Of a stretch of DNA of 9,192 bases, positions 1,685 to 8,980 are shown one piece after another. A program made the translations under genes and the position numbers. The stretch is from a virus (Duplodnaviria; Heunggongvirae; Uroviricota; Caudoviricetes), in IMG/VR virus record IMGVR_UViG_2671180366_000013. The stretch is one strand, 5' to 3'. Every line of letters starts with the position of its first letter. Position 1 is the stretch's first letter. The notes under the pieces were generated by a model, which saw only the letters and a program-made list of their open reading frames with translations, was not told the origin of the DNA and ran no database searches.

Positions 1685-3055
1685 TTACTTGTTCAGTAAC
1701 TCAAGGATAAGTTTTGTCTTTTCTTCCATCAGCGGTACATCGCCGCGCGATTCCACATTCAACCGCACCACCGGTTCGGTGTTGGAGGAGCGCAGGTTAA
1801 AGCGCCAGTCGGCAAAGGTCATGCTGATGCCATCGGTGCGATCCACCGCCAGCGCCTCGCGGCTAAAGTGCTGTTCCACGCGGTTAATCGCCTCAACGGG
1901 GTGTGCCAGTTTGCTGTTGATCTCACCGCTTGCCGGAAACGCTGCCATCCGGTCGCGCACCAGTTCGCCCAGCGTTTTTCCTTTCAGGCACACCAGTTCG
2001 GCGACCAGCAGCCACGGGATCATGCCGCTGTCGCAGTAAGCGAAATCACGGAAGTAATGGTGGGCGCTCATTTCGCCACCGTAGATAGCGTCTTCCTTGC
2101 GCATACGTTCTTTAATAAAGGCGTGTCCGGTTTTCGACATTACCGGGGTGCCGCCTGCGGCAGTCACCACATCAACGGTGTTCCAGGAGAGACGTGGATC
2201 GTGGATGATCTTCGCGCCGGGATTTTTTTCGAGGAACGCTTCTGCCAGCAGGCCGACAATGTAGTAGCCCTCAATAAACTGCCCTTTTTCGTCAAACAGG
2301 AAACAGCGGTCAAAATCGCCATCAAAGGCAATGCCCATATCCGCGCCGTGTTTGATGACCGCATTGCGGGTGTCGTCGCGACATTCCGGCAGTAGCGGGT
2401 TAGGAATACCGTTGGGGAAATTGCCGTCCGGCGTGTTGTGCACTTTGATTAATTCCACGGGTGCGCCGAGGGCTTTAAAGCGGGCTTCAATGGCGTCCAC
2501 CACCGGACCCGCCGCGCCGTTCCCGGAGTTAATCACCAGCTTGAGCGGCGTGAGGTTTTTGACGTTGATATAACCGAACAGGTGATCAACGTAAGCGTCA
2601 CGCAGATTGATTTGCTGATAGCGACCGCGTTTGGTTTCATCAACGGGAGGAAAGTCGTTGGCTTCTGCCAGACGCTGGATGTCGCGCAGTCCGGTATCAC
2701 CGCTGATCGGGCGAGCCCCTTCGCGCACCAGTTTCATGCCGTTGTAATCCATCGGGTTATGGCTGGCGGTAACTTCGATGCCGCCATCCACGCCGAGATG
2801 GAACGTGGCGAAATAGATCTCTTCGGTGCCGGACATGCCAATATCCAGCACATCGACGCCCGCATCCTGTAACCCCTTCGCCAGCGCCAGTTTTAAGGTT
2901 TCGCTGGTGAGTCGGACGTCACCGCCTAACACAATGGTTTTCGGTTTGAGAAATTCGCCATAAGCGCGACCAATGCGCCAGGCAATATCTTCATTCAGTT
3001 CTTCGCCTAATTTCCCGCGAATATCATAGGCTTTAAAGCAGGGTAAACTCGACAT
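1685..3055 (-). CDS. manB: Phosphomannomutase (Man-6-P to Man-1-P), 456 aa
   Basis: ATG at 3055-3053, TAA at 1687-1685. Active-site phosphoserine motif TASHNP, metal-binding DGDFDR, N-terminus [14 protein letters not shown] typical of ManB/CpsG. SD AAGGTAT about 6 nt upstream. GC-rich (about 55-60% by eye) apart from the last 15 or so codons. Confidence 0.95.
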
Positions 3056-3137: not shown

Positions 3138-4577
3138 TTAGCTACGACCATATCGGTCCTGAAAACGGATAACATCGTCTTCTTCTAAATAAGATCCAGA
3201 ACGAACTTCAATTAAATCAAGAGGAATTTTCCCTGGATTTTCCAAGCAGTGTATTACACCAAGAGGTATGTAAACAGATTCATTTTCGCTAAGAATCTTA
3301 GTTTCAGAACCTATAGTCACCCTTGCAGTTCCAGAAACTATGATCCAATGTTCTGCCCTATGATGGTGCATTTGTAAAGAAAGTCCTTCACCAGGATTTA
3401 CTGTTATACGTTTGACCTGATAACGCTCCCCTGTGTCAATGGAATCATATTTACCCCAAGGACGATATACTTCGCGATGAACATAATGCTCGCTACGACC
3501 TGAATTTTTAATTTGTTCTACTATTTTCTTTACATCCTGAACTTTATTTCTCTCTGAGACAAGAACAGCATCCTTTGTTTGGACAACAACTAAATTTTCC
3601 ACTCCAACTGTAGCAACAATTCCCGATTCGGCATATATGAAAGAATTCTTTGTTTCATGAGAGAAAATATCCCCAACTATTACGTTGCCGTCTGAGTCTT
3701 TATCATTAATTTCCCAAAGAGAAGACCATGAACCGACATCACTCCAGCCAGCATCCATTGGAATAACAATTGCGTCTTTTGTTTTTTCCATTACAGCGTA
3801 ATCAATTGACTCTTCAGGGCACTTAGAGAAAGAACTTTCATCTAAACGCACAAAATCAAGGTCAAAGTTCGCTGAAGCAATTGCTTTTTCACAAGCGGAT
3901 AAAATATCAGGCCGAAATTGTTTAAGTTCCTCTATATAACGATTTGCACTAAACAAAAACATACCGCTATTCCAATAATACTCACCGGAAGCAAGATATT
4001 TAGTGGCTGTCTCATGATTTGGCTTTTCAACAAATGATGACACTATAAATGCATCCGAATCTTCCTGATTAATATATTGTCCTCGATGTATATAACCATA
4101 ACCAGTTTCTGCTTTGTCTGGAATTATACCAAATGTTACCAATTTCCCATCAGCAGCGTATGGAATTGCCGATCTAACAGCGTTACAAAATTTTTCTTCA
4201 TCGTGTATAACGTGATCTGCAGCCAGTACGAGCATAAGATCATCTGCACTTTTATCAGACTTAGACATCAGCAACGCCGCTAATGCAATTGCAGGGGCAG
4301 TGTTACGCCCAACAGGCTCAAGGATGATATTCTTTGAAGTCAATCTATCGATTTTTCTAAGCTGTTCAGCAACTATAAAGCGGTATTGTTCATTACAAAT
4401 GACATAAGGGTTGGTACAATCCAAACCATCCAGACGATTAGCCGTTGTTTGAAGCATGGTATGACTACCGATTAGGCTAAGAAATTGTTTCGGATAGAGA
4501 ATTCTTGATAGTGGCCACAACCGACTGCCTGAACCACCAGCCATAATGATAGGTGTAATAATTTTATTATTGTTCAT
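3138..4577 (-). CDS. manC: Mannose-1-phosphate guanylyltransferase (GDP-mannose pyrophosphorylase), 479 aa; alternative start at 4589 gives 483 aa
   Basis: N-terminal nucleotidyltransferase motif [14 protein letters not shown] and C-terminal cupin-type domain (…[19 protein letters not shown]…), the architecture of type II ManC/CpsB. Two in-frame ATGs (4589 and 4577): the second has a weak GAGA SD upstream and gives an N-terminal length matching CpsB-type proteins; the first would overlap the upstream glycosyltransferase by 23 nt. TAA at 3140-3138. AT-rich. Confidence 0.92.
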
Positions 4578-5772
4578 ATAATTTCTCATCTAATGTATTC
4601 ATTAAATTGGCAACTTTTGATTCCCAAGAAAAATTATTTTCTACAAAACTACGGGCATTTTCAGCCACTTCAGTATAACGATTATAATCGTAAATTATTT
4701 CTCTTAGTACGTTTTTATATTGCTCTACTGTATCTGCAACAAAAATTTCGCTACCTGATTTTGCATTAATACCTTCATAACCAATGCTAGATGTAATACA
4801 TGGTAAACCTAAAGCCATGTATTCAAGAATTTTATTTTGTACGCCTGCTCCAAGACGAACAGGACATATACCTATATGCCCTGTAGAAGCGGAAGAATTG
4901 ATATCATCAACAGTACCTAAAGCAATTGTATTTTTAAATGAATTTAATATATTTTTATTAGTTTCTGAGATCTTACCAATCACTTTAAAAATAATATTAA
5001 ACTCATCATACAAGCAAGGTAAAATATTCTTAGCAAAATGTTTTGCAGCATCCATATTTTGTAAAGAATACATATTTCCGATAAATATAAGTTCCACAGG
5101 CTTATCGATTTTTATTTCTCTTTTTATATATCTCAAGGCTGATGTATCAACCCCATTATTGACTATATGGATATTACTGCCCGGATTAGGGTAGAGATAG
5201 TCACGGTCTACGGATGAAATAAAAGTGGTCAAATCAAAAAGATTCGCCACAGAACGTTCATATGATTCTAATCTTTTTTGTTCCAGAGAATAAATAATTG
5301 CACGCAAACTTTTTTTACTTGCTAATTTTTTAACGCGACTGTAATTCAAAGATATTGCATCTGTCATATCAAGAATTTTGAACTTGTCTGTATCCTTAAC
5401 ATAATCAGCAACTCTTATCAGATGACAAAATACTGCATCGCATTGTTTAATTAATTTATTGTATTTATTCTTAAATGTGTCCGATTGATAATAAGCAATT
5501 TGCAACGGTTTTTGCGTAACCAAAGCTTTTAATACATTATAATATGATTTATATTTTGGTAGATAGACACGATGAATTTCTTTGAAGACCGAGTCATTTA
5601 TATTTATTTCAAGTTCTAGTGGTTGATCACATAAGCTCAGAAGAATAAGATCATATTTTTTGGAAAGTTCTTTACATAACATATAGACTCTTAATCTATC
5701 CCCTCCAATGACAGGGTAGGGAAAGCGAGGTGTAAGAACCAGTATTTTTTTTCTCTGCTCTGATTGATTCAT
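4567..5772 (-). CDS. Glycosyltransferase, GT-B fold / GT4 family (donor unknown; possibly a mannosyltransferase given position next to manC), 401 aa
   Basis: N-terminal domain motif [17 protein letters not shown] and C-terminal donor-binding motif [19 protein letters not shown], both typical of Glycos_transf_1. The ORF track starts at a GTG (5829) that would overlap the epimerase gene by 37 nt; the first ATG (5772-5770) leaves a 20-nt gap after the epimerase stop and has AAGG upstream, so I call the start at 5772. TAA at 4569-4567. Confidence 0.85.
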
Positions 5773-5792
5773 AAAACTGAAACCTTTTATAT

Positions 5793-6800
5793 TCAGAATC
5801 CGTCTGGATAATTTTTTTTCCAACGCCACGAGTCCAATAACATCTGTTCTAGAGTTTGTTCGGCTTGCCAGTCCAATAAAGAATTAGCTTTATCTGCATC
5901 AGCCCAACAAGACGCAACATCCCCTGCCCTTCTCTCTATAAAAGATTTATTGACCTTAATGTTTGTTAATTTTTCAAATGTAGTGATTAATTCAAGCACC
6001 GAATAACCTTTTCCTGTACCAAGATTAAAGATATTATATCCCGAATTGATACTTAAATAATTCATTGCAGCCAAATGACCTTTCGCTAAGTCAACAACAT
6101 GAATAAAATCCCTTACACCTGTTCCATCATTAGTAGGGTAATCATTGCCATAAATAAATAATTTATCACGTTTACCACTCGCAACATCCAATAAATAAGG
6201 AACAAGATTATTAGGGATACCAGATGGAGCCTCACCTATTTTACCACTAGAATGAGCACCGACAGGATTAAAATATCTCAAGCAAATTATATCCAGTTTT
6301 CCCGTGGAACTAACATCCTCTAGAATTTTTTCAACAAAATACTTCGATGTGCCATATGGATTCGTAGTTCCTCCAATTTTAGCTGTTTCTGGAATTGGAA
6401 TTATCTCTGGTTCACCATAGACTGTCGCAGATGAACTAAAGATAAATTTTTTAATTCTGTACTCTTCCATTACCTGTAATAAAGTAATGGTCACTCCAAC
6501 ATTATTCTGGTAATACTTTAAGGGTTCACTTTTAGACTCTGAAACAGATTTAAAGCCAGCAAAATGAATAACTATATCTATGGCGTGTTTCTCGAAAATA
6601 GCGGAGAGTGTCTTCCTACACCCAGCATCTCCAGTAATTGTTATAAAATCACGTCGAGTAATTTCTTTTATTTTTTCGATACACTTGTATGAAGCATTAC
6701 TGAAATTGTCCAGAACGATAATCTCATGACCTGCATTCAGTAATTCAATAGCCGTATGAGATCCGATATATCCAGCACCACCAGTTACTAATATGTTCAT
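5793..6800 (-). CDS. gne: UDP-hexose 4-epimerase of the GalE family (NAD-dependent SDR), 335 aa; predicted to accept N-acetylated substrates (Gne-like)
   Basis: N-terminal NAD motif VTGGAGYIGSH, SSSATVYG substrate motif, catalytic YGTSK (Tyr-x3-Lys), colinear with E. coli GalE throughout. The position aligned to GalE Tyr299 is Cys298 here (codon at 5907-5909). ATG at 6800-6798 with GGAGAT SD about 7 nt upstream. The gne symbol rests on the Cys inference; GalE-family membership is secure. Confidence 0.9.
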   Translation of the reverse strand: MNILVTGGAGYIGSHTAIELLNAGHEIIVLDNFSNASYKCIEKIKEITRRDFITITGDAGCRKTLSAIFEKHAIDIVIHFAGFKSVSESKSEPLKYYQNNVGVTITLLQVMEEYRIKKFIFSSSATVYGEPEIIPIPETAKIGGTTNPYGTSKYFVEKILEDVSSTGKLDIICLRYFNPVGAHSSGKIGEAPSGIPNNLVPYLLDVASGKRDKLFIYGNDYPTNDGTGVRDFIHVVDLAKGHLAAMNYLSINSGYNIFNLGTGKGYSVLELITTFEKLTNIKVNKSFIERRAGDVASCWADADKANSLLDWQAEQTLEQMLLDSWRWKKNYPDGF

Positions 6801-6816
6801 ATTATATCTCCACTAA

Positions 6817-7962
6817 CTAATCGTCAAAATTTATTATATCAAGTTCATGGCCATTAAACCGATAATGTGAATAATATTTTTGCTGATAAGACATTATTAG
6901 CTGTTTATTGATACTTTTCATCTTGAAATCTTTAGGAAATTCCTCATCCAAATGTGAGATTTTTTTAACACACTCCTTATTGTGTATAATTTCATCATAG
7001 CCGATTAAGGAATGCTCTGTCGCATAAATATATAATCCATATGATAGTGCTTCTGCAATTTTTGTTTTCATTCCACTTCCTAAAACTATAGGAGAATAAA
7101 AAACATCACAAGCAGATAATAAATATGACATTTCACTATTAGATAGATTATCGAAAAAAAATAAATTATCCAAATCAGGAAGATTCAAAGTAGTACTTTT
7201 CCTACCTGCCAAAATATAGCAATAATCATTATTAGACTTTGCTGCATTTAAAACATAGTTGGCAGCATCTATATTTGGAAAAAAATCAAAAGATGCAGTA
7301 AATACTACTTTTTTCCTATTATCATTATTCAATCGATTATACTCATTAATAAAGTGAGCTGACAATACATCAGTTGGTTTTTCTCTACTAAATATCACAG
7401 GGAGAATTAAATTTCTGCTTTTTTTAATCCCATAAAATTTATCCATTGCATTTTTATCTTGCCGGGTAATATAGCTAACTAAATCTGAATTCTTAAGCCC
7501 GATAAATTCATTGAGATAAACAATTAATTTTTCAATAAAAGTAGTTATGTTTTTATCTTTTTGTCTTATTAAGTCATATTCGAAGTTATCCGTAAACAAT
7601 ATGATCTTTTTGTGGGGCATGAGTATTCTAAAAAGCAGACATAACAATCCAAGCCGAGAGTTGTGAAAAGCAAGAATATCTTGCTTCCGTAAAATTTTAA
7701 TTATTGAGAAAATATAAGGGACATAAAATGATGGTATAAAAAAAAGCCTGGATATTATATCCTGACGTTTACCTTTAATAAATGATATATGTTGAAAAGT
7801 ATTGTCTTCGAATAGTTTACCTGAGGATTTTTTATCAATAAGTGTTAAATTAACATTCTGTTTTTGTAGAAAACTAACAAGCGTACGTAAATATACTCCT
7901 CCTCCGGTAAGTTCATTATATGAGTTAATTGAAATGAGACAGAGTTTCTTATTTTTTTTCAT
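6817..7962 (-). CDS. Glycosyltransferase, GT-B fold / GT4-like, 381 aa
   Basis: ATG at 7962-7960, TAG at 6819-6817. N-terminal LTGGGVYLRTL and C-terminal GSGMKTKIAEALSYGLYIY match the Glycos_transf_1 donor-binding region. Very AT-rich. Overlaps the upstream gene by 14 nt. Confidence 0.8.
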   Translation of the reverse strand: MKKNKKLCLISINSYNELTGGGVYLRTLVSFLQKQNVNLTLIDKKSSGKLFEDNTFQHISFIKGKRQDIISRLFFIPSFYVPYIFSIIKILRKQDILAFHNSRLGLLCLLFRILMPHKKIILFTDNFEYDLIRQKDKNITTFIEKLIVYLNEFIGLKNSDLVSYITRQDKNAMDKFYGIKKSRNLILPVIFSREKPTDVLSAHFINEYNRLNNDNRKKVVFTASFDFFPNIDAANYVLNAAKSNNDYCYILAGRKSTTLNLPDLDNLFFFDNLSNSEMSYLLSACDVFYSPIVLGSGMKTKIAEALSYGLYIYATEHSLIGYDEIIHNKECVKKISHLDEEFPKDFKMKSINKQLIMSYQQKYYSHYRFNGHELDIINFDD

Positions 7963-8980
7963 TAAATGCCGCCGTTAAAATTTCCGCATATCTCTCTTCA
8001 GAAAAAAGCTCACGCTTGCTATAAATAGTTTGTCTCAAATGATAATATTTTTCATTATCAAGACTAATTAATTTGTAGGCTACTTGTGCTAAATCTTCTT
8101 TATTATTGGCAATAAATACGCCAGGAAAACTTTCTGCATACAACTCTCTAATTGCACCAACATTATAGCCTATCACAGGGCAACCACAGCATAGCGCTTC
8201 AATAGTAACCAGCTCATATCCTTCATAATAGGACGGTAAAATAAGTACTCTGGATTTCTTAAATATTTCTGGCATTTTCGCATAGGGGACAGCAATGCTG
8301 GTCAGAACATTATTTAGCGAAGCAAAATTTTGTGGGGCGGGAATACTTGAAACTAAATGGAAGGAAGTATCTGGCAGATTTTTACATATGTAATACAGAT
8401 CATCTATTCCTTTTCCTTTTTCCAATCGCCCGACAAATGTCACATATTCTGCTTCATTAACATCAGTGTAATCAAATTGTGCAAGATTTATAAAATTTCG
8501 AACAACTTTGATTTTATGTGAATTAATATTGTAAAGCTCATTCCATTCACTTTTAACCTTATTTGAAACAGCCCAGATATTTTTTGAAAATGCTCCAGCC
8601 CAACGCTCATAGAAAGATAAAAGACCACTGCCAGACAACCGATTAGGTTTTTTATTCATGACTGTTTGAAAATAACATTTCATATTGCCATGAGCTATTA
8701 AGATGTCATTCCTATAAAAAGGAGAACAATAGCCATGTGCAATAACTTTAAACGTCACGCCACGTAATTTTTGTAAGGTTAAATAAAGAGAAACTAATAT
8801 TGGATAAAGTGCTACTTGTATTTTTTTGTTACGAATTTTGTTAGAAATTTTGAAGTATGTTTTATCAAGTATAATGACTTTAACCCCCAAATTTTTAAGA
8901 ATGTTACATTGTTGGGCAACAACCCTTTCCACCCCACCTTGCCCTCCTGAACCATTATACGCGGCGATATATATAATCAT
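7949..8980 (-). CDS. Glycosyltransferase, GT4 family (retaining), 343 aa
   Basis: N-terminal GSGGQGGVERVV and canonical E-x7-E motif EGYELVTIEALCCGCPVIG. The ORF track start (9031) is a GTG; the first ATG at 8980-8978 gives a typical GT4 N-terminus (MIIYIAAYNGSGG), has GGGAAG about 10 nt upstream, and forms an ATGA overlap with the stop of the upstream ORF. TAA at 7951-7949. Confidence 0.85.
   Translation of the reverse strand: MIIYIAAYNGSGGQGGVERVVAQQCNILKNLGVKVIILDKTYFKISNKIRNKKIQVALYPILVSLYLTLQKLRGVTFKVIAHGYCSPFYRNDILIAHGNMKCYFQTVMNKKPNRLSGSGLLSFYERWAGAFSKNIWAVSNKVKSEWNELYNINSHKIKVVRNFINLAQFDYTDVNEAEYVTFVGRLEKGKGIDDLYYICKNLPDTSFHLVSSIPAPQNFASLNNVLTSIAVPYAKMPEIFKKSRVLILPSYYEGYELVTIEALCCGCPVIGYNVGAIRELYAESFPGVFIANNKEDLAQVAYKLISLDNEKYYHLRQTIYSKRELFSEERYAEILTAAFNEKK

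What the first reader, a model, noticed from the sequence alone, without database searches (positions are those of the whole stretch)
5793..6800. GalE-family epimerase carries Cys at the gatekeeper position
Aligning the C-terminal region to E. coli GalE (…GDLPAYWADASKA…) against this protein (…GDVASCWADADKA…) places Cys298 (codon 5907-5909) at the position of GalE Tyr299. In GalE-family enzymes a bulky Tyr there restricts the pocket to UDP-Glc/Gal, whereas a small residue (Cys307 in human GALE, Ser306 in WbpP) admits UDP-GlcNAc/GalNAc. This predicts a UDP-GlcNAc/UDP-GalNAc 4-epimerase (Gne-like, possibly bifunctional), which would supply GalNAc (or Gal) for the O-unit or for WecA-type initiation.
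Basis: partly seen in the sequence, partly recalled or inferred. Interest (0 to 1): 0.55.

Follow-up and report, generated by a model that had tools for sequence, protein, structure and literature searches.

The report
E. coli O6 gne: UDP-GalNAc-supplying epimerase

Summary
ORF 5793-6800 (-) encodes a 335-aa GalE-family epimerase. Codon 5907-5909 is TGT (Cys298) and aligns, with no nearby gaps, to Tyr299 of E. coli K-12 GalE and Cys307 of human GALE. The other five pocket residues (K84, S124, Y149, N178, N198) match the bifunctional "group 2" enzymes.

The window is the E. coli O6 O-antigen cluster. The O6 repeat contains one internal GalNAc, one GlcNAc and no Gal. All 153 complete genomes carrying this gene also carry housekeeping galE (Tyr299), and none carries an O157-type gnu. 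So the prediction that this enzyme supplies UDP-GalNAc is well supported.

It is not new. Cunneen et al. 2013 and Liu et al. 2020 already list O6 as having gne. The gatekeeper rule has mutagenesis support in E. coli, human, Neisseria, Yersinia and Aspergillus enzymes.

Cys is also not unusual. It is the commonest residue at this position (41 of 150 family representatives; 117 of the 120 nearest homologues). Tyr is the rarity (4 of 150).

Two side clauses are not supported: supplying "Gal", and "WecA-type initiation" with GalNAc.

No enzyme assay of the O6 protein was found, so the function remains an inference.

The parts
5793..6800 (-). gne (RefSeq name: galE), a 335-aa GalE/Gne clade A UDP-hexose 4-epimerase of the E. 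coli O6 O-antigen cluster
   Evidence: ORF; RefSeq CDS WP_001024185.1 at the same coordinates. TIGR01179 scores 430.4 bits against a cutoff of 262.3. It is 49% identical to K-12 GalE and to human GALE. The AF2 model has pLDDT 92.7 and TM 0.97-0.98 to GalE structures. GC is 35.5% against 54.4% for K-12 galE.
5907..5909 (-). Cys298 codon (TGT), the gatekeeper / C5-pocket residue, equivalent to E. coli GalE Tyr299, human GALE Cys307 and B. longum GalE Cys299
   Evidence: It is retained in the most divergent O6 allele found (98.7% DNA identity).
6207..6209 (-). Asn198 codon, the C2-pocket residue (E. coli N199, human N207, B. longum N200) that swings out to admit the N-acetyl group
   Evidence: role described in PMC6668579. 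Asn is found in 144 of 150 representatives.
6342..6356 (-). Y149-x-x-x-K153 catalytic motif (Tyr codon 6354-6356, Lys codon 6342-6344)
   Evidence: Invariant in 150 of 150 representatives and in alignments A1 and A2.
6429..6431 (-). Ser124 codon, the catalytic-triad serine
   Evidence: Ser in 146 of 150 and Thr in 4 of 150 representatives.
6549..6551 (-). Lys84 codon, a sugar-pocket wall residue (E. coli K84, B. longum K85)
6267..6269 (-). Asn178 codon, which recognises O6 of the sugar (E. coli N179, human N187, B. longum N180)
6762..6782 (-). G7-G-A-G-Y-I-G13 Rossmann NAD+-binding motif
   Evidence: G7, G8, G10 and G13 are invariant.
4567..5772 (-). Downstream family 4 glycosyltransferase of the O6 cluster (context; one of the four GTs that build the O unit)
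   Evidence: RefSeq CDS WP_001076405.1. Its start is ATG 5772, not the longer GTG 5829 ORF.
6817..7962 (-). Upstream glycosyltransferase of the O6 cluster (context)
3138..4589 (-). manC (GDP-mannose pathway; context: the O6 unit has two Man residues)
1685..3055 (-). manB (annotated cpsG), phosphomannomutase (context)

Best explanation
The gene is gne of the E. coli O6 O-antigen cluster. It encodes an NAD+-dependent SDR-type UDP-hexose 4-epimerase of the GalE/Gne clade. The mechanism is the usual one: Tyr149, Ser124 and Lys153 oxidise C4, the 4-keto sugar rotates in the pocket, and it is reduced from the other face. Position 298 is a small Cys instead of the Tyr299 of E. coli's own GalE, and the C2-pocket Asn198 is present. 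Together these should give room for the 2-N-acetyl group during rotation, so the enzyme should interconvert UDP-GlcNAc and UDP-GalNAc, and probably UDP-Glc and UDP-Gal as well (group 2 behaviour). In the cell its job is to supply UDP-GalNAc for the internal alpha-GalNAc of the O6 repeat. WecA starts that repeat with GlcNAc. Housekeeping GalE cannot make UDP-GalNAc. Shown here: sequence, alignment, pocket residues, fold, gene context and co-occurrence patterns. Inferred: the substrate range and the in vivo role.
For: Identity of the locus: the window is 100% identical to O6 strains, and the cluster reads galF-wzx(O6)-wzy(O6)-GT2-GT4-GT-gne-GT4-manC-manB-gnd. Family membership: TIGR01179 scores 430 bits against a cutoff of 262; identity is 49% to both E. 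coli GalE and human GALE; model TM is 0.97-0.98 to GalE structures. Pocket: K84, S124, Y149, N178, N198 and C298 equal the group 2 set K85, S125, Y150, N180, N200 and C299 of B. longum GalE, whose pocket residues are reported as completely conserved with human GALE; the residues were confirmed. The top PDB sequence hit is the engineered Y299C E. coli GalE (1LRK), then B. longum GalE. Causality of the residue (literature): Y299C raises UDP-GalNAc activity 230-fold and C307Y abolishes it; Neisseria S299F and F300S swap mono- and bifunctionality; A. nidulans L320C gains and L320Y lacks the activity; Yersinia O:8 Gne behaves the same way. Need: the O6 unit is ->4)-a-GalNAc-(1->3)-[b-Glc-(1->2)]-b-Man-(1->4)-b-Man-(1->3)-a-GlcNAc-(1->. 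Paralogy: housekeeping galE is in 5391 of 5426 genomes, and a chimeric query shows it in every genome that has this gene. No alternative GalNAc route: there is no gene between galF and wcaM, and the 153 gne genomes and 1315 gnu genomes are disjoint (1468 records, at most one place each). Conservation: Cys298 is kept in the divergent O6 allele, in the colinear Salmonella houtenae cluster, and in the O103, O185 and other E. coli O-cluster paralogues. Literature: O6 is scored 'gne present and correct, gnu absent and correct', and O6 is listed among serogroups with gne where GlcNAc is the first sugar.
Against: I found no enzyme assay, knockout or complementation of the O6 protein itself. Cunneen et al. 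caution that clade A GalE and Gne cannot yet be separated by sequence alone. The A. nidulans paper notes that a large cleft does not guarantee activity on the larger substrate. The fold comparison cannot tell group 1 from group 2. RefSeq and NCBIfam simply call it GalE. The gnu screen would only find O157-like alleles, at roughly 85% DNA identity or more.
Confidence: 0.9

Rival explanations
1. It is a dedicated UDP-GlcNAc/UDP-GalNAc epimerase with little or no activity on UDP-Glc/UDP-Gal. That would be group 3-like specificity on a group 2 scaffold, rather than a truly bifunctional enzyme.
For: The O6 unit needs GalNAc but not Gal, and housekeeping GalE already covers UDP-Gal, so nothing selects for keeping UDP-Glc/Gal activity. 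E. coli Y299C loses 5-fold activity on UDP-Gal. Cunneen et al. note that discrimination against UDP-Glc has not been tested in enlarged pockets.
Against: All six pocket residues are those of enzymes with equal activity on both substrate pairs. The changes that characterise the group 3 enzymes WbpP and WbgU are absent here: K84 and N198 are retained. The match to WbgU is about 80 bits, against about 360 bits for GalEs. Yersinia O:8 Gne also uses UDP-Glc.
Confidence: 0.12
2. It is a redundant second GalE restricted to UDP-Glc/UDP-Gal (group 1 behaviour), and UDP-GalNAc comes from somewhere else.
For: RefSeq/PGAP and the TIGR01179 and PRK10675 models name it UDP-glucose 4-epimerase GalE. A small gatekeeper permits N-acetyl-substrate activity but does not strictly prove it.
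Against: The gatekeeper is Cys, not Tyr, Phe or Leu. The O6 unit has no Gal. Housekeeping galE is present in the same genomes. No other candidate UDP-GalNAc or Und-PP-GalNAc source was found. The gene is conserved inside the cluster, including in a Salmonella cluster diverged to 55-69% protein identity.
Confidence: 0.03
3. [quoted passage not shown]
For: The O6 main chain has one GlcNAc and one GalNAc, so the structure alone does not say which comes first (Cunneen 'need gnu OR gne' group).
Against: Similarity to O157 Gnu (ECs_2847) is only 27% over the N-terminal 161 residues, E 1e-8, against 49% over the full length to GalE. The gene is inside the cluster, not upstream of galF. It lies in clade A, not clade D.
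Confidence: 0.01

Closest known systems
Gne of other enterobacterial O-antigen clusters (Yersinia enterocolitica O:8 Gne; E. coli O86 Gne; the gne genes of O103, O185 and others), clade A of Cunneen et al. 2013
   Same: It is a galE-like gene sitting inside an O-antigen cluster, in addition to the gal-operon galE. The O unit has a non-initiating GalNAc. The gatekeeper is small: Cys in the O103, O185 and third E. coli paralogues I aligned. In Yersinia, function is attributed to pocket size. The O6 gene is itself already listed as gne.
   Different: It is only 53-57% identical to the other E. coli paralogues I aligned. It sits in the middle of the cluster between glycosyltransferases rather than next to gnd. 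I found no published biochemistry for the O6 protein.
Group 2 bifunctional GalE enzymes: human GALE (1EK6/1HZJ) and Bifidobacterium longum GalE (6K0G-I)
   Same: It is 49% identical to human GALE, with the same six pocket residues including Cys at the gatekeeper and Asn at the C2 pocket. Model TM is 0.95-0.98.
   Different: Those enzymes serve Leloir or GNB/LNB catabolism and general glycoconjugate supply. This one is a laterally acquired, low-GC accessory copy dedicated to one O antigen.
E. coli housekeeping GalE (b0759; group 1b) and its engineered Y299C mutant (1LRK)
   Same: It is 49% identical over the full length with the same fold and catalytic triad. The Y299C mutant is the single best PDB sequence hit.
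   Different: The wild type has Tyr299 and does not use UDP-GlcNAc. It lies in the gal operon, has 54% GC against 35.5% here, and is present in about 99% of E. coli genomes against 153 of 5426 for this gene.
Gnu (Z3206/ECs_2847) and GnaB/WbpP/WbgU/TviC epimerases
   Same: They belong to the same extended SDR superfamily and have related historical 'gne' naming.
   Different: Gnu shares 27% identity over the Rossmann part only. TviC scores 79.6 bits against a cutoff of 760. WbgU scores about 80 bits. They act on different substrates (Und-PP-GlcNAc; UDP-GlcNAcA).

Membership tests
GalE/Gne clade A UDP-hexose 4-epimerases (SDR1E; TIGR01179) | Scores above the curated HMM cutoff over the full length | tested here: met
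   TIGR01179 scores 430.4 bits against a cutoff of 262.3. PRK10675 scores 407.8 against 394.
GalE/Gne clade A UDP-hexose 4-epimerases (SDR1E; TIGR01179) | N-terminal GxxGxxG NAD+ motif and Ser-Tyr-Lys catalytic triad | tested here: met
   G7-G13, S124, Y149 and K153 are present and invariant in the alignments.
GalE/Gne clade A UDP-hexose 4-epimerases (SDR1E; TIGR01179) | Two-domain GalE fold | tested here: met
   The AF2 model has pLDDT 92.7. Foldseek gives TM 0.97-0.98 and rmsd 1.2-1.3 A to human and E. coli GalE.
Group 2 (bifunctional UDP-Glc/Gal + UDP-GlcNAc/GalNAc) epimerases, Ishiyama classification | Small residue (Cys/Ser) at the gatekeeper / C5 pocket | tested here: met
   Cys298 aligns with Tyr299 of E. 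coli GalE and Cys307 of human GALE.
Group 2 (bifunctional UDP-Glc/Gal + UDP-GlcNAc/GalNAc) epimerases, Ishiyama classification | Remaining pocket residues as in human and B. longum GalE (Lys, Ser, Tyr, Asn, Asn) | tested here: met
   K84, S124, Y149, N178 and N198.
Group 2 (bifunctional UDP-Glc/Gal + UDP-GlcNAc/GalNAc) epimerases, Ishiyama classification | Comparable measured activity on both substrate pairs | not testable with these tools
   This needs an enzyme assay. I found no published assay of the O6 protein.
gne, by the operational criteria of Cunneen et al. 2013 | Clade A gene located inside an O-polysaccharide gene cluster | tested here: met
   It lies between glycosyltransferase genes of the galF-gnd O6 cluster.
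gne, by the operational criteria of Cunneen et al. 2013 | A separate galE (gal operon) elsewhere in the same genome | tested here: met
   The chimeric query still gives 5391 records, and all 60 listed O6 genomes have two places. K-12 galE lies in galETKM.
gne, by the operational criteria of Cunneen et al. 2013 | O unit contains a GalNAc that is not the initiating sugar, and no gnu is present | tested here: met
   The O6 structure has one GalNAc and one GlcNAc. There is no gene between galF and wcaM. The gne and gnu genome sets are disjoint. The literature assigns GlcNAc as the first sugar, and that assignment is itself an inference.
Group 1 GalE (UDP-Glc/Gal only; E. coli GalE type) | Bulky gatekeeper (Tyr, Phe or Leu) | tested here: not met
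   Cys298.
Gnu (clade D, Und-PP-GlcNAc 4-epimerase) | Full-length similarity to Z3206/ECs_2847 and a position upstream of galF | tested here: not met
   Similarity is 27% over 161 aa only. The gene is inside the cluster, whereas O157 gnu lies between galF and wcaM.
GnaB / WbpP / TviC (clade B, group 3) | HMM or sequence similarity to TviC, WbpP or WbgU | tested here: not met
   TviC scores 79.6 bits against a cutoff of 760. WbgU scores about 80 bits, E about 1e-21, against about 360 bits for GalEs. I did not make a residue-level alignment to WbpP Ser306; that equivalence is taken from PMC6668579.

The most novel reading that the evidence does not exclude
The O6 enzyme may have drifted from the generic bifunctional group 2 behaviour. 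It could be effectively N-acetyl-specific, or otherwise altered in substrate range, despite carrying a textbook group 2 pocket. That would mean residues outside the six-residue 'box' tune specificity in O-antigen-dedicated Gne paralogues.
Probability: 0.1. Interest if true: 0.25.

Novelty: already known. Interest (0 to 1): 0.1.

Why it matters
It matters little beyond annotation quality. O6 is a major serogroup: the genomes matched here include UPEC/ExPEC strains CFT073 and 536, O6:H16 ETEC strains, the probiotic Nissle 1917 and the reference strain ATCC 25922. Its GalNAc depends on this gene, so anyone moving the O6 cluster into another host for glycoengineering needs it. RefSeq labels the gene only as 'UDP-glucose 4-epimerase GalE', which hides that role. 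The family survey is a useful reminder that E. coli GalE's Tyr299 is the exception. Cys, Ser and Val dominate, so many proteins named 'GalE' are probably able to make UDP-GalNAc. None of this opens a new question, because both the gatekeeper rule and the O6 gne assignment are already published.

Tried and rejected
(1) The primary Yersinia O:8 Gne paper (Bengoechea 2002, PMC135196) is not held. I relied on its summaries.
(2) Three literature searches for direct work on the O6 enzyme and a search of the Cunneen supplements for strain names found nothing specific.
(3) Structure prediction plus Foldseek confirmed the fold. It cannot discriminate specificity groups, because wild-type E. coli GalE, the Y299C mutant, human GALE and B. 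longum GalE all score TM 0.95-0.98. The tools give no side-chain-level pocket geometry.
The Ser306 equivalence is taken from the literature.
(5) A 'distant' blastn of gne against E. coli genomes did not reach housekeeping galE, so I tested co-occurrence with chimeric queries instead.
(6) I considered and rejected the Gnu-type reading, the GnaB/TviC-type reading and the redundant group 1 GalE reading.
(7) I rejected the idea that Cys298 is an unusual substitution.

Full report
WHAT IS THERE. The window is the 3' two-thirds of an O-antigen gene cluster, with every gene on the minus strand. In window order these are gnd (116-1522), manB (1685-3055), manC (3138-4589), a family 4 glycosyltransferase (4567-5772), the epimerase gene in question (5793-6800), a second glycosyltransferase (6817-7962) and a third (7949-8980). 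Megablast against 5,426 complete E. coli genomes finds the whole window in 153 of them at 95% identity or more. It is 100% identical in strain YJ6 and near-identical in named O6 strains (O6:H16 isolates, CFT073, 536, Nissle 1917, ATCC 25922). RefSeq annotates the flanking wzx and wzy as 'O6 family' flippase and polymerase. The full cluster reads galF-wzx-wzy-GT2-GT4-GT-galE-GT4-manC-manB-gnd.

CHECK OF THE OBSERVATION. The ORF runs from ATG 6800-6798 to TGA 5795-5793 and encodes 335 aa. Codon 298 is TGT at 5907-5909, followed by TGG.

- BLASTP against E. coli K-12 GalE (taken from the galETKM operon) gives 49% identity and E 4e-124. The only gap is one residue at about position 165, and Cys298 lies opposite Tyr299.
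BLASTP then places Cys298 opposite Cys307.
- An eight-sequence MAFFT alignment gives the same column.

HOW UNUSUAL IS IT? It is not unusual. Among the 120 closest cluster representatives in the 5.8-billion-protein collection, 117 have Cys at this column. A word-index-free HMMER scan of 1.84 billion 50%-identity representatives gave 150 top hits. At this column they read C 41, V 34, S 28, I 13, L 10, N 6, Y 4, F 4, A 4, T 3 and three others. Meanwhile K84, S124, Y149, K153, N178 and N198 are essentially invariant. Cys is the plurality state of the family, and the Tyr of E. coli GalE is the rarity. Fittingly, the best PDB sequence match of this protein is not wild-type E. coli GalE. It is the engineered Y299C mutant (1LRK), followed by the naturally Cys-bearing B. 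longum enzyme.

WHAT THE RESIDUE MEANS. Nam et al. 2019 (PMC6668579) describe the sugar pocket of B. longum GalE as K85, S125, Y150, N180, N200 and C299. Three of these (K85, N200, C299) vary between specificity groups. The size of the 'C5 pocket' residue is the primary determinant: Cys or Ser in groups 2 and 3, and Tyr or Leu in group 1. Mutagenesis supports this in several systems:

- E. coli Y299C gains 230-fold activity on UDP-GalNAc and loses 5-fold on UDP-Gal. Human C307Y loses the N-acetyl activity.
- Reciprocal swaps in Neisseria (S299F and F300S) exchange mono- and bifunctionality.
- A. nidulans L320C gains the activity and L320Y lacks it.
- Yersinia O:8 Gne behaves the same way.

The O6 protein has K84, S124, Y149, N178, N198 and C298, which is exactly the group 2 set. 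The AlphaFold model is confident (pLDDT 92.7) and superposes on human GALE, E. coli GalE, the Y299C mutant and B. longum GalE at TM 0.95-0.98. This confirms the fold but cannot separate the groups.

BIOLOGICAL CONTEXT. The O6 repeat is ->4)-a-D-GalNAc-(1->3)-[b-D-Glc-(1->2)]-b-D-Man-(1->4)-b-D-Man-(1->3)-a-D-GlcNAc-(1->, or with a GlcNAc branch in the Jann variant (PMC11148006). It needs GDP-Man (manC and manB are in the cluster), UDP-GlcNAc, UDP-Glc and UDP-GalNAc. It needs no UDP-Gal. Four glycosyltransferases in the cluster match the four linkages made after a WecA-initiated GlcNAc.

I tested the operational criteria of Cunneen et al. 2013 for calling a clade A gene gne:

- The gene is inside an O-antigen cluster.
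- A separate galE exists elsewhere. K-12 galE DNA is found in 5,391 of 5,426 genomes. A chimeric query (gne plus the neighbouring GT plus galE) still returns 5,391 records, and all 60 listed O6 genomes have two places. Every genome with this gene therefore also has housekeeping galE.
- The alternative route to GalNAc is absent. In O157 Sakai, gnu (ECs_2847) lies between galF and wcaM, and in O6 that interval is 175 bp with no gene. Genome-wide, gnu occurs in 1,315 genomes. A gne+gnu chimeric query returns exactly 153 + 1,315 = 1,468 records with at most one place per genome, so the two sets are disjoint.

The protein itself is not Gnu-like: it shares 27% identity over the N-terminal 161 residues only. 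It is not GnaB/TviC-like either: 79.6 bits against a cutoff of 760.

Cys298 is retained in several related genes:

- the most divergent O6 allele;
- a Salmonella enterica subsp. houtenae cluster that is gene-for-gene colinear with O6 at 55-69% protein identity;
- the galE-like paralogues of the O103 and O185 clusters and a third E. coli O-antigen cluster.

Only the gal-operon enzyme has Tyr.

MECHANISM (inferred). NAD+ bound at the G7-G13 Rossmann motif abstracts the C4 hydride, assisted by Tyr149, Ser124 and Lys153. The 4-keto intermediate rotates and hydride is returned to the opposite face. The small Cys298 enlarges the C5 pocket and Asn198 can swing out of the C2 pocket, so the 2-acetamido group can be accommodated in both orientations. 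The expected result is UDP-GlcNAc/UDP-GalNAc interconversion, most likely alongside UDP-Glc/UDP-Gal. The UDP-GalNAc feeds the transferase that adds the terminal main-chain a-GalNAc. Wzy then links units through a-GlcNAc-(1->4)-GalNAc. I put 0.9 on the UDP-GalNAc-supplying role. Within that, I put roughly 0.75-0.8 on true bifunctionality and about 0.12 on an N-acetyl-dedicated enzyme.

COMPARISON WITH WHAT IS KNOWN. This is already in the literature. Cunneen et al. 2013, Table S2, scores O6 as having one main-chain GalNAc and one main-chain GlcNAc, with 'gne present and correct' and 'gnu absent and correct'. Liu et al. 2020 list O6 among the twelve serogroups in which GlcNAc is deduced to be the initial sugar because gne is in the cluster. 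The gatekeeper rule itself dates from 2001-2004 and has been confirmed repeatedly. What I could not find is any biochemical or genetic study of the O6 enzyme itself. The assignment therefore remains an inference, but a strong one.

The O6 unit has no Gal. The idea that WecA initiates with UDP-GalNAc has been replaced by the Gnu pathway.

VERDICT. The novelty rating is 'already known' and interest is low (0.1). The residual value is an annotation note: RefSeq calls the gene GalE. There is also the general point that Cys, not Tyr, is the family norm at this position.

Noticed in passing
window 1685-3055 (manB) versus 3138-4589 (manC): There is a sharp composition step between the two genes. manB is 55% GC and 96.8% identical in DNA to the colanic-acid cpsG of O157 Sakai. 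The adjacent manC is 38% GC and only about 66% identical to cpsB. This looks like replacement of the cluster's original manB by recombination with the resident colanic-acid copy. RefSeq even names it cpsG.
   Followed up: partly
L003 / L004 (Salmonella enterica subsp. houtenae contigs), 1089-11075: This Salmonella O-antigen cluster is gene-for-gene colinear with E. coli O6 (galF-wzx-wzy-GT2-GT4-GT-gne-GT4-manC). Protein identity is 55-69% per gene, with gne the best conserved of the specific genes at 68%. It probably makes the same or a very similar O unit. I did not identify the serogroup.
   Followed up: partly
L005-L007, gene at 8001-9020: P0090 is a different 339-aa galE paralogue with a Cys gatekeeper, 57% identical to the O6 protein. 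It is widespread in E. coli (indexed in 4,132 blocks of the assembly collection). It sits in a separate polysaccharide island with three glycosyltransferases, a Wzz/GNVR-type protein and a DUF4832 protein, next to an integrase in one genome. It is not the galF-gnd locus.
   Followed up: no
window 5793-6800; L001 11775-12782: RefSeq/PGAP names the gene 'galE: UDP-glucose 4-epimerase GalE'. The NCBIfam equivalog TIGR01179 and subfamily PRK10675 both pass their cutoffs. The curated models therefore do not separate Gne-capable from GalE-only enzymes, and the public annotation hides the UDP-GalNAc role.
   Followed up: yes
window 5772-5829 and 8980-9031: The mechanical ORF list extends two glycosyltransferase ORFs to upstream GTG codons (5829 and 9031). 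This creates an apparent 37-nt overlap with the 3' end of gne. RefSeq starts them at ATG 5772 and at 8980, which leaves a 20-nt gap after the gne stop codon. The overlap is probably not real.
   Followed up: partly
window 5745-5752, 5812-5819, 7154-7161, 7738-7745, 7952-7959 (also 58-65): There are six homopolymer runs of exactly eight A or T. One lies in gne codons 327-329 (W-K-K-N) and one in the first codons of the downstream glycosyltransferase. They may simply reflect the 28-35% GC of these genes. I did not examine slippage or frameshift variants, although a 314-aa truncated relative (P0003) exists.
   Followed up: no
PDB search with window:5793-6800:-: The top-ranked solved structure by sequence is the engineered E. 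coli GalE Y299C mutant (1LRK/1LRL, 366.3 bits). It ranks ahead of wild-type E. coli GalE (about 361 bits) solely because of the shared Cys.
   Followed up: yes
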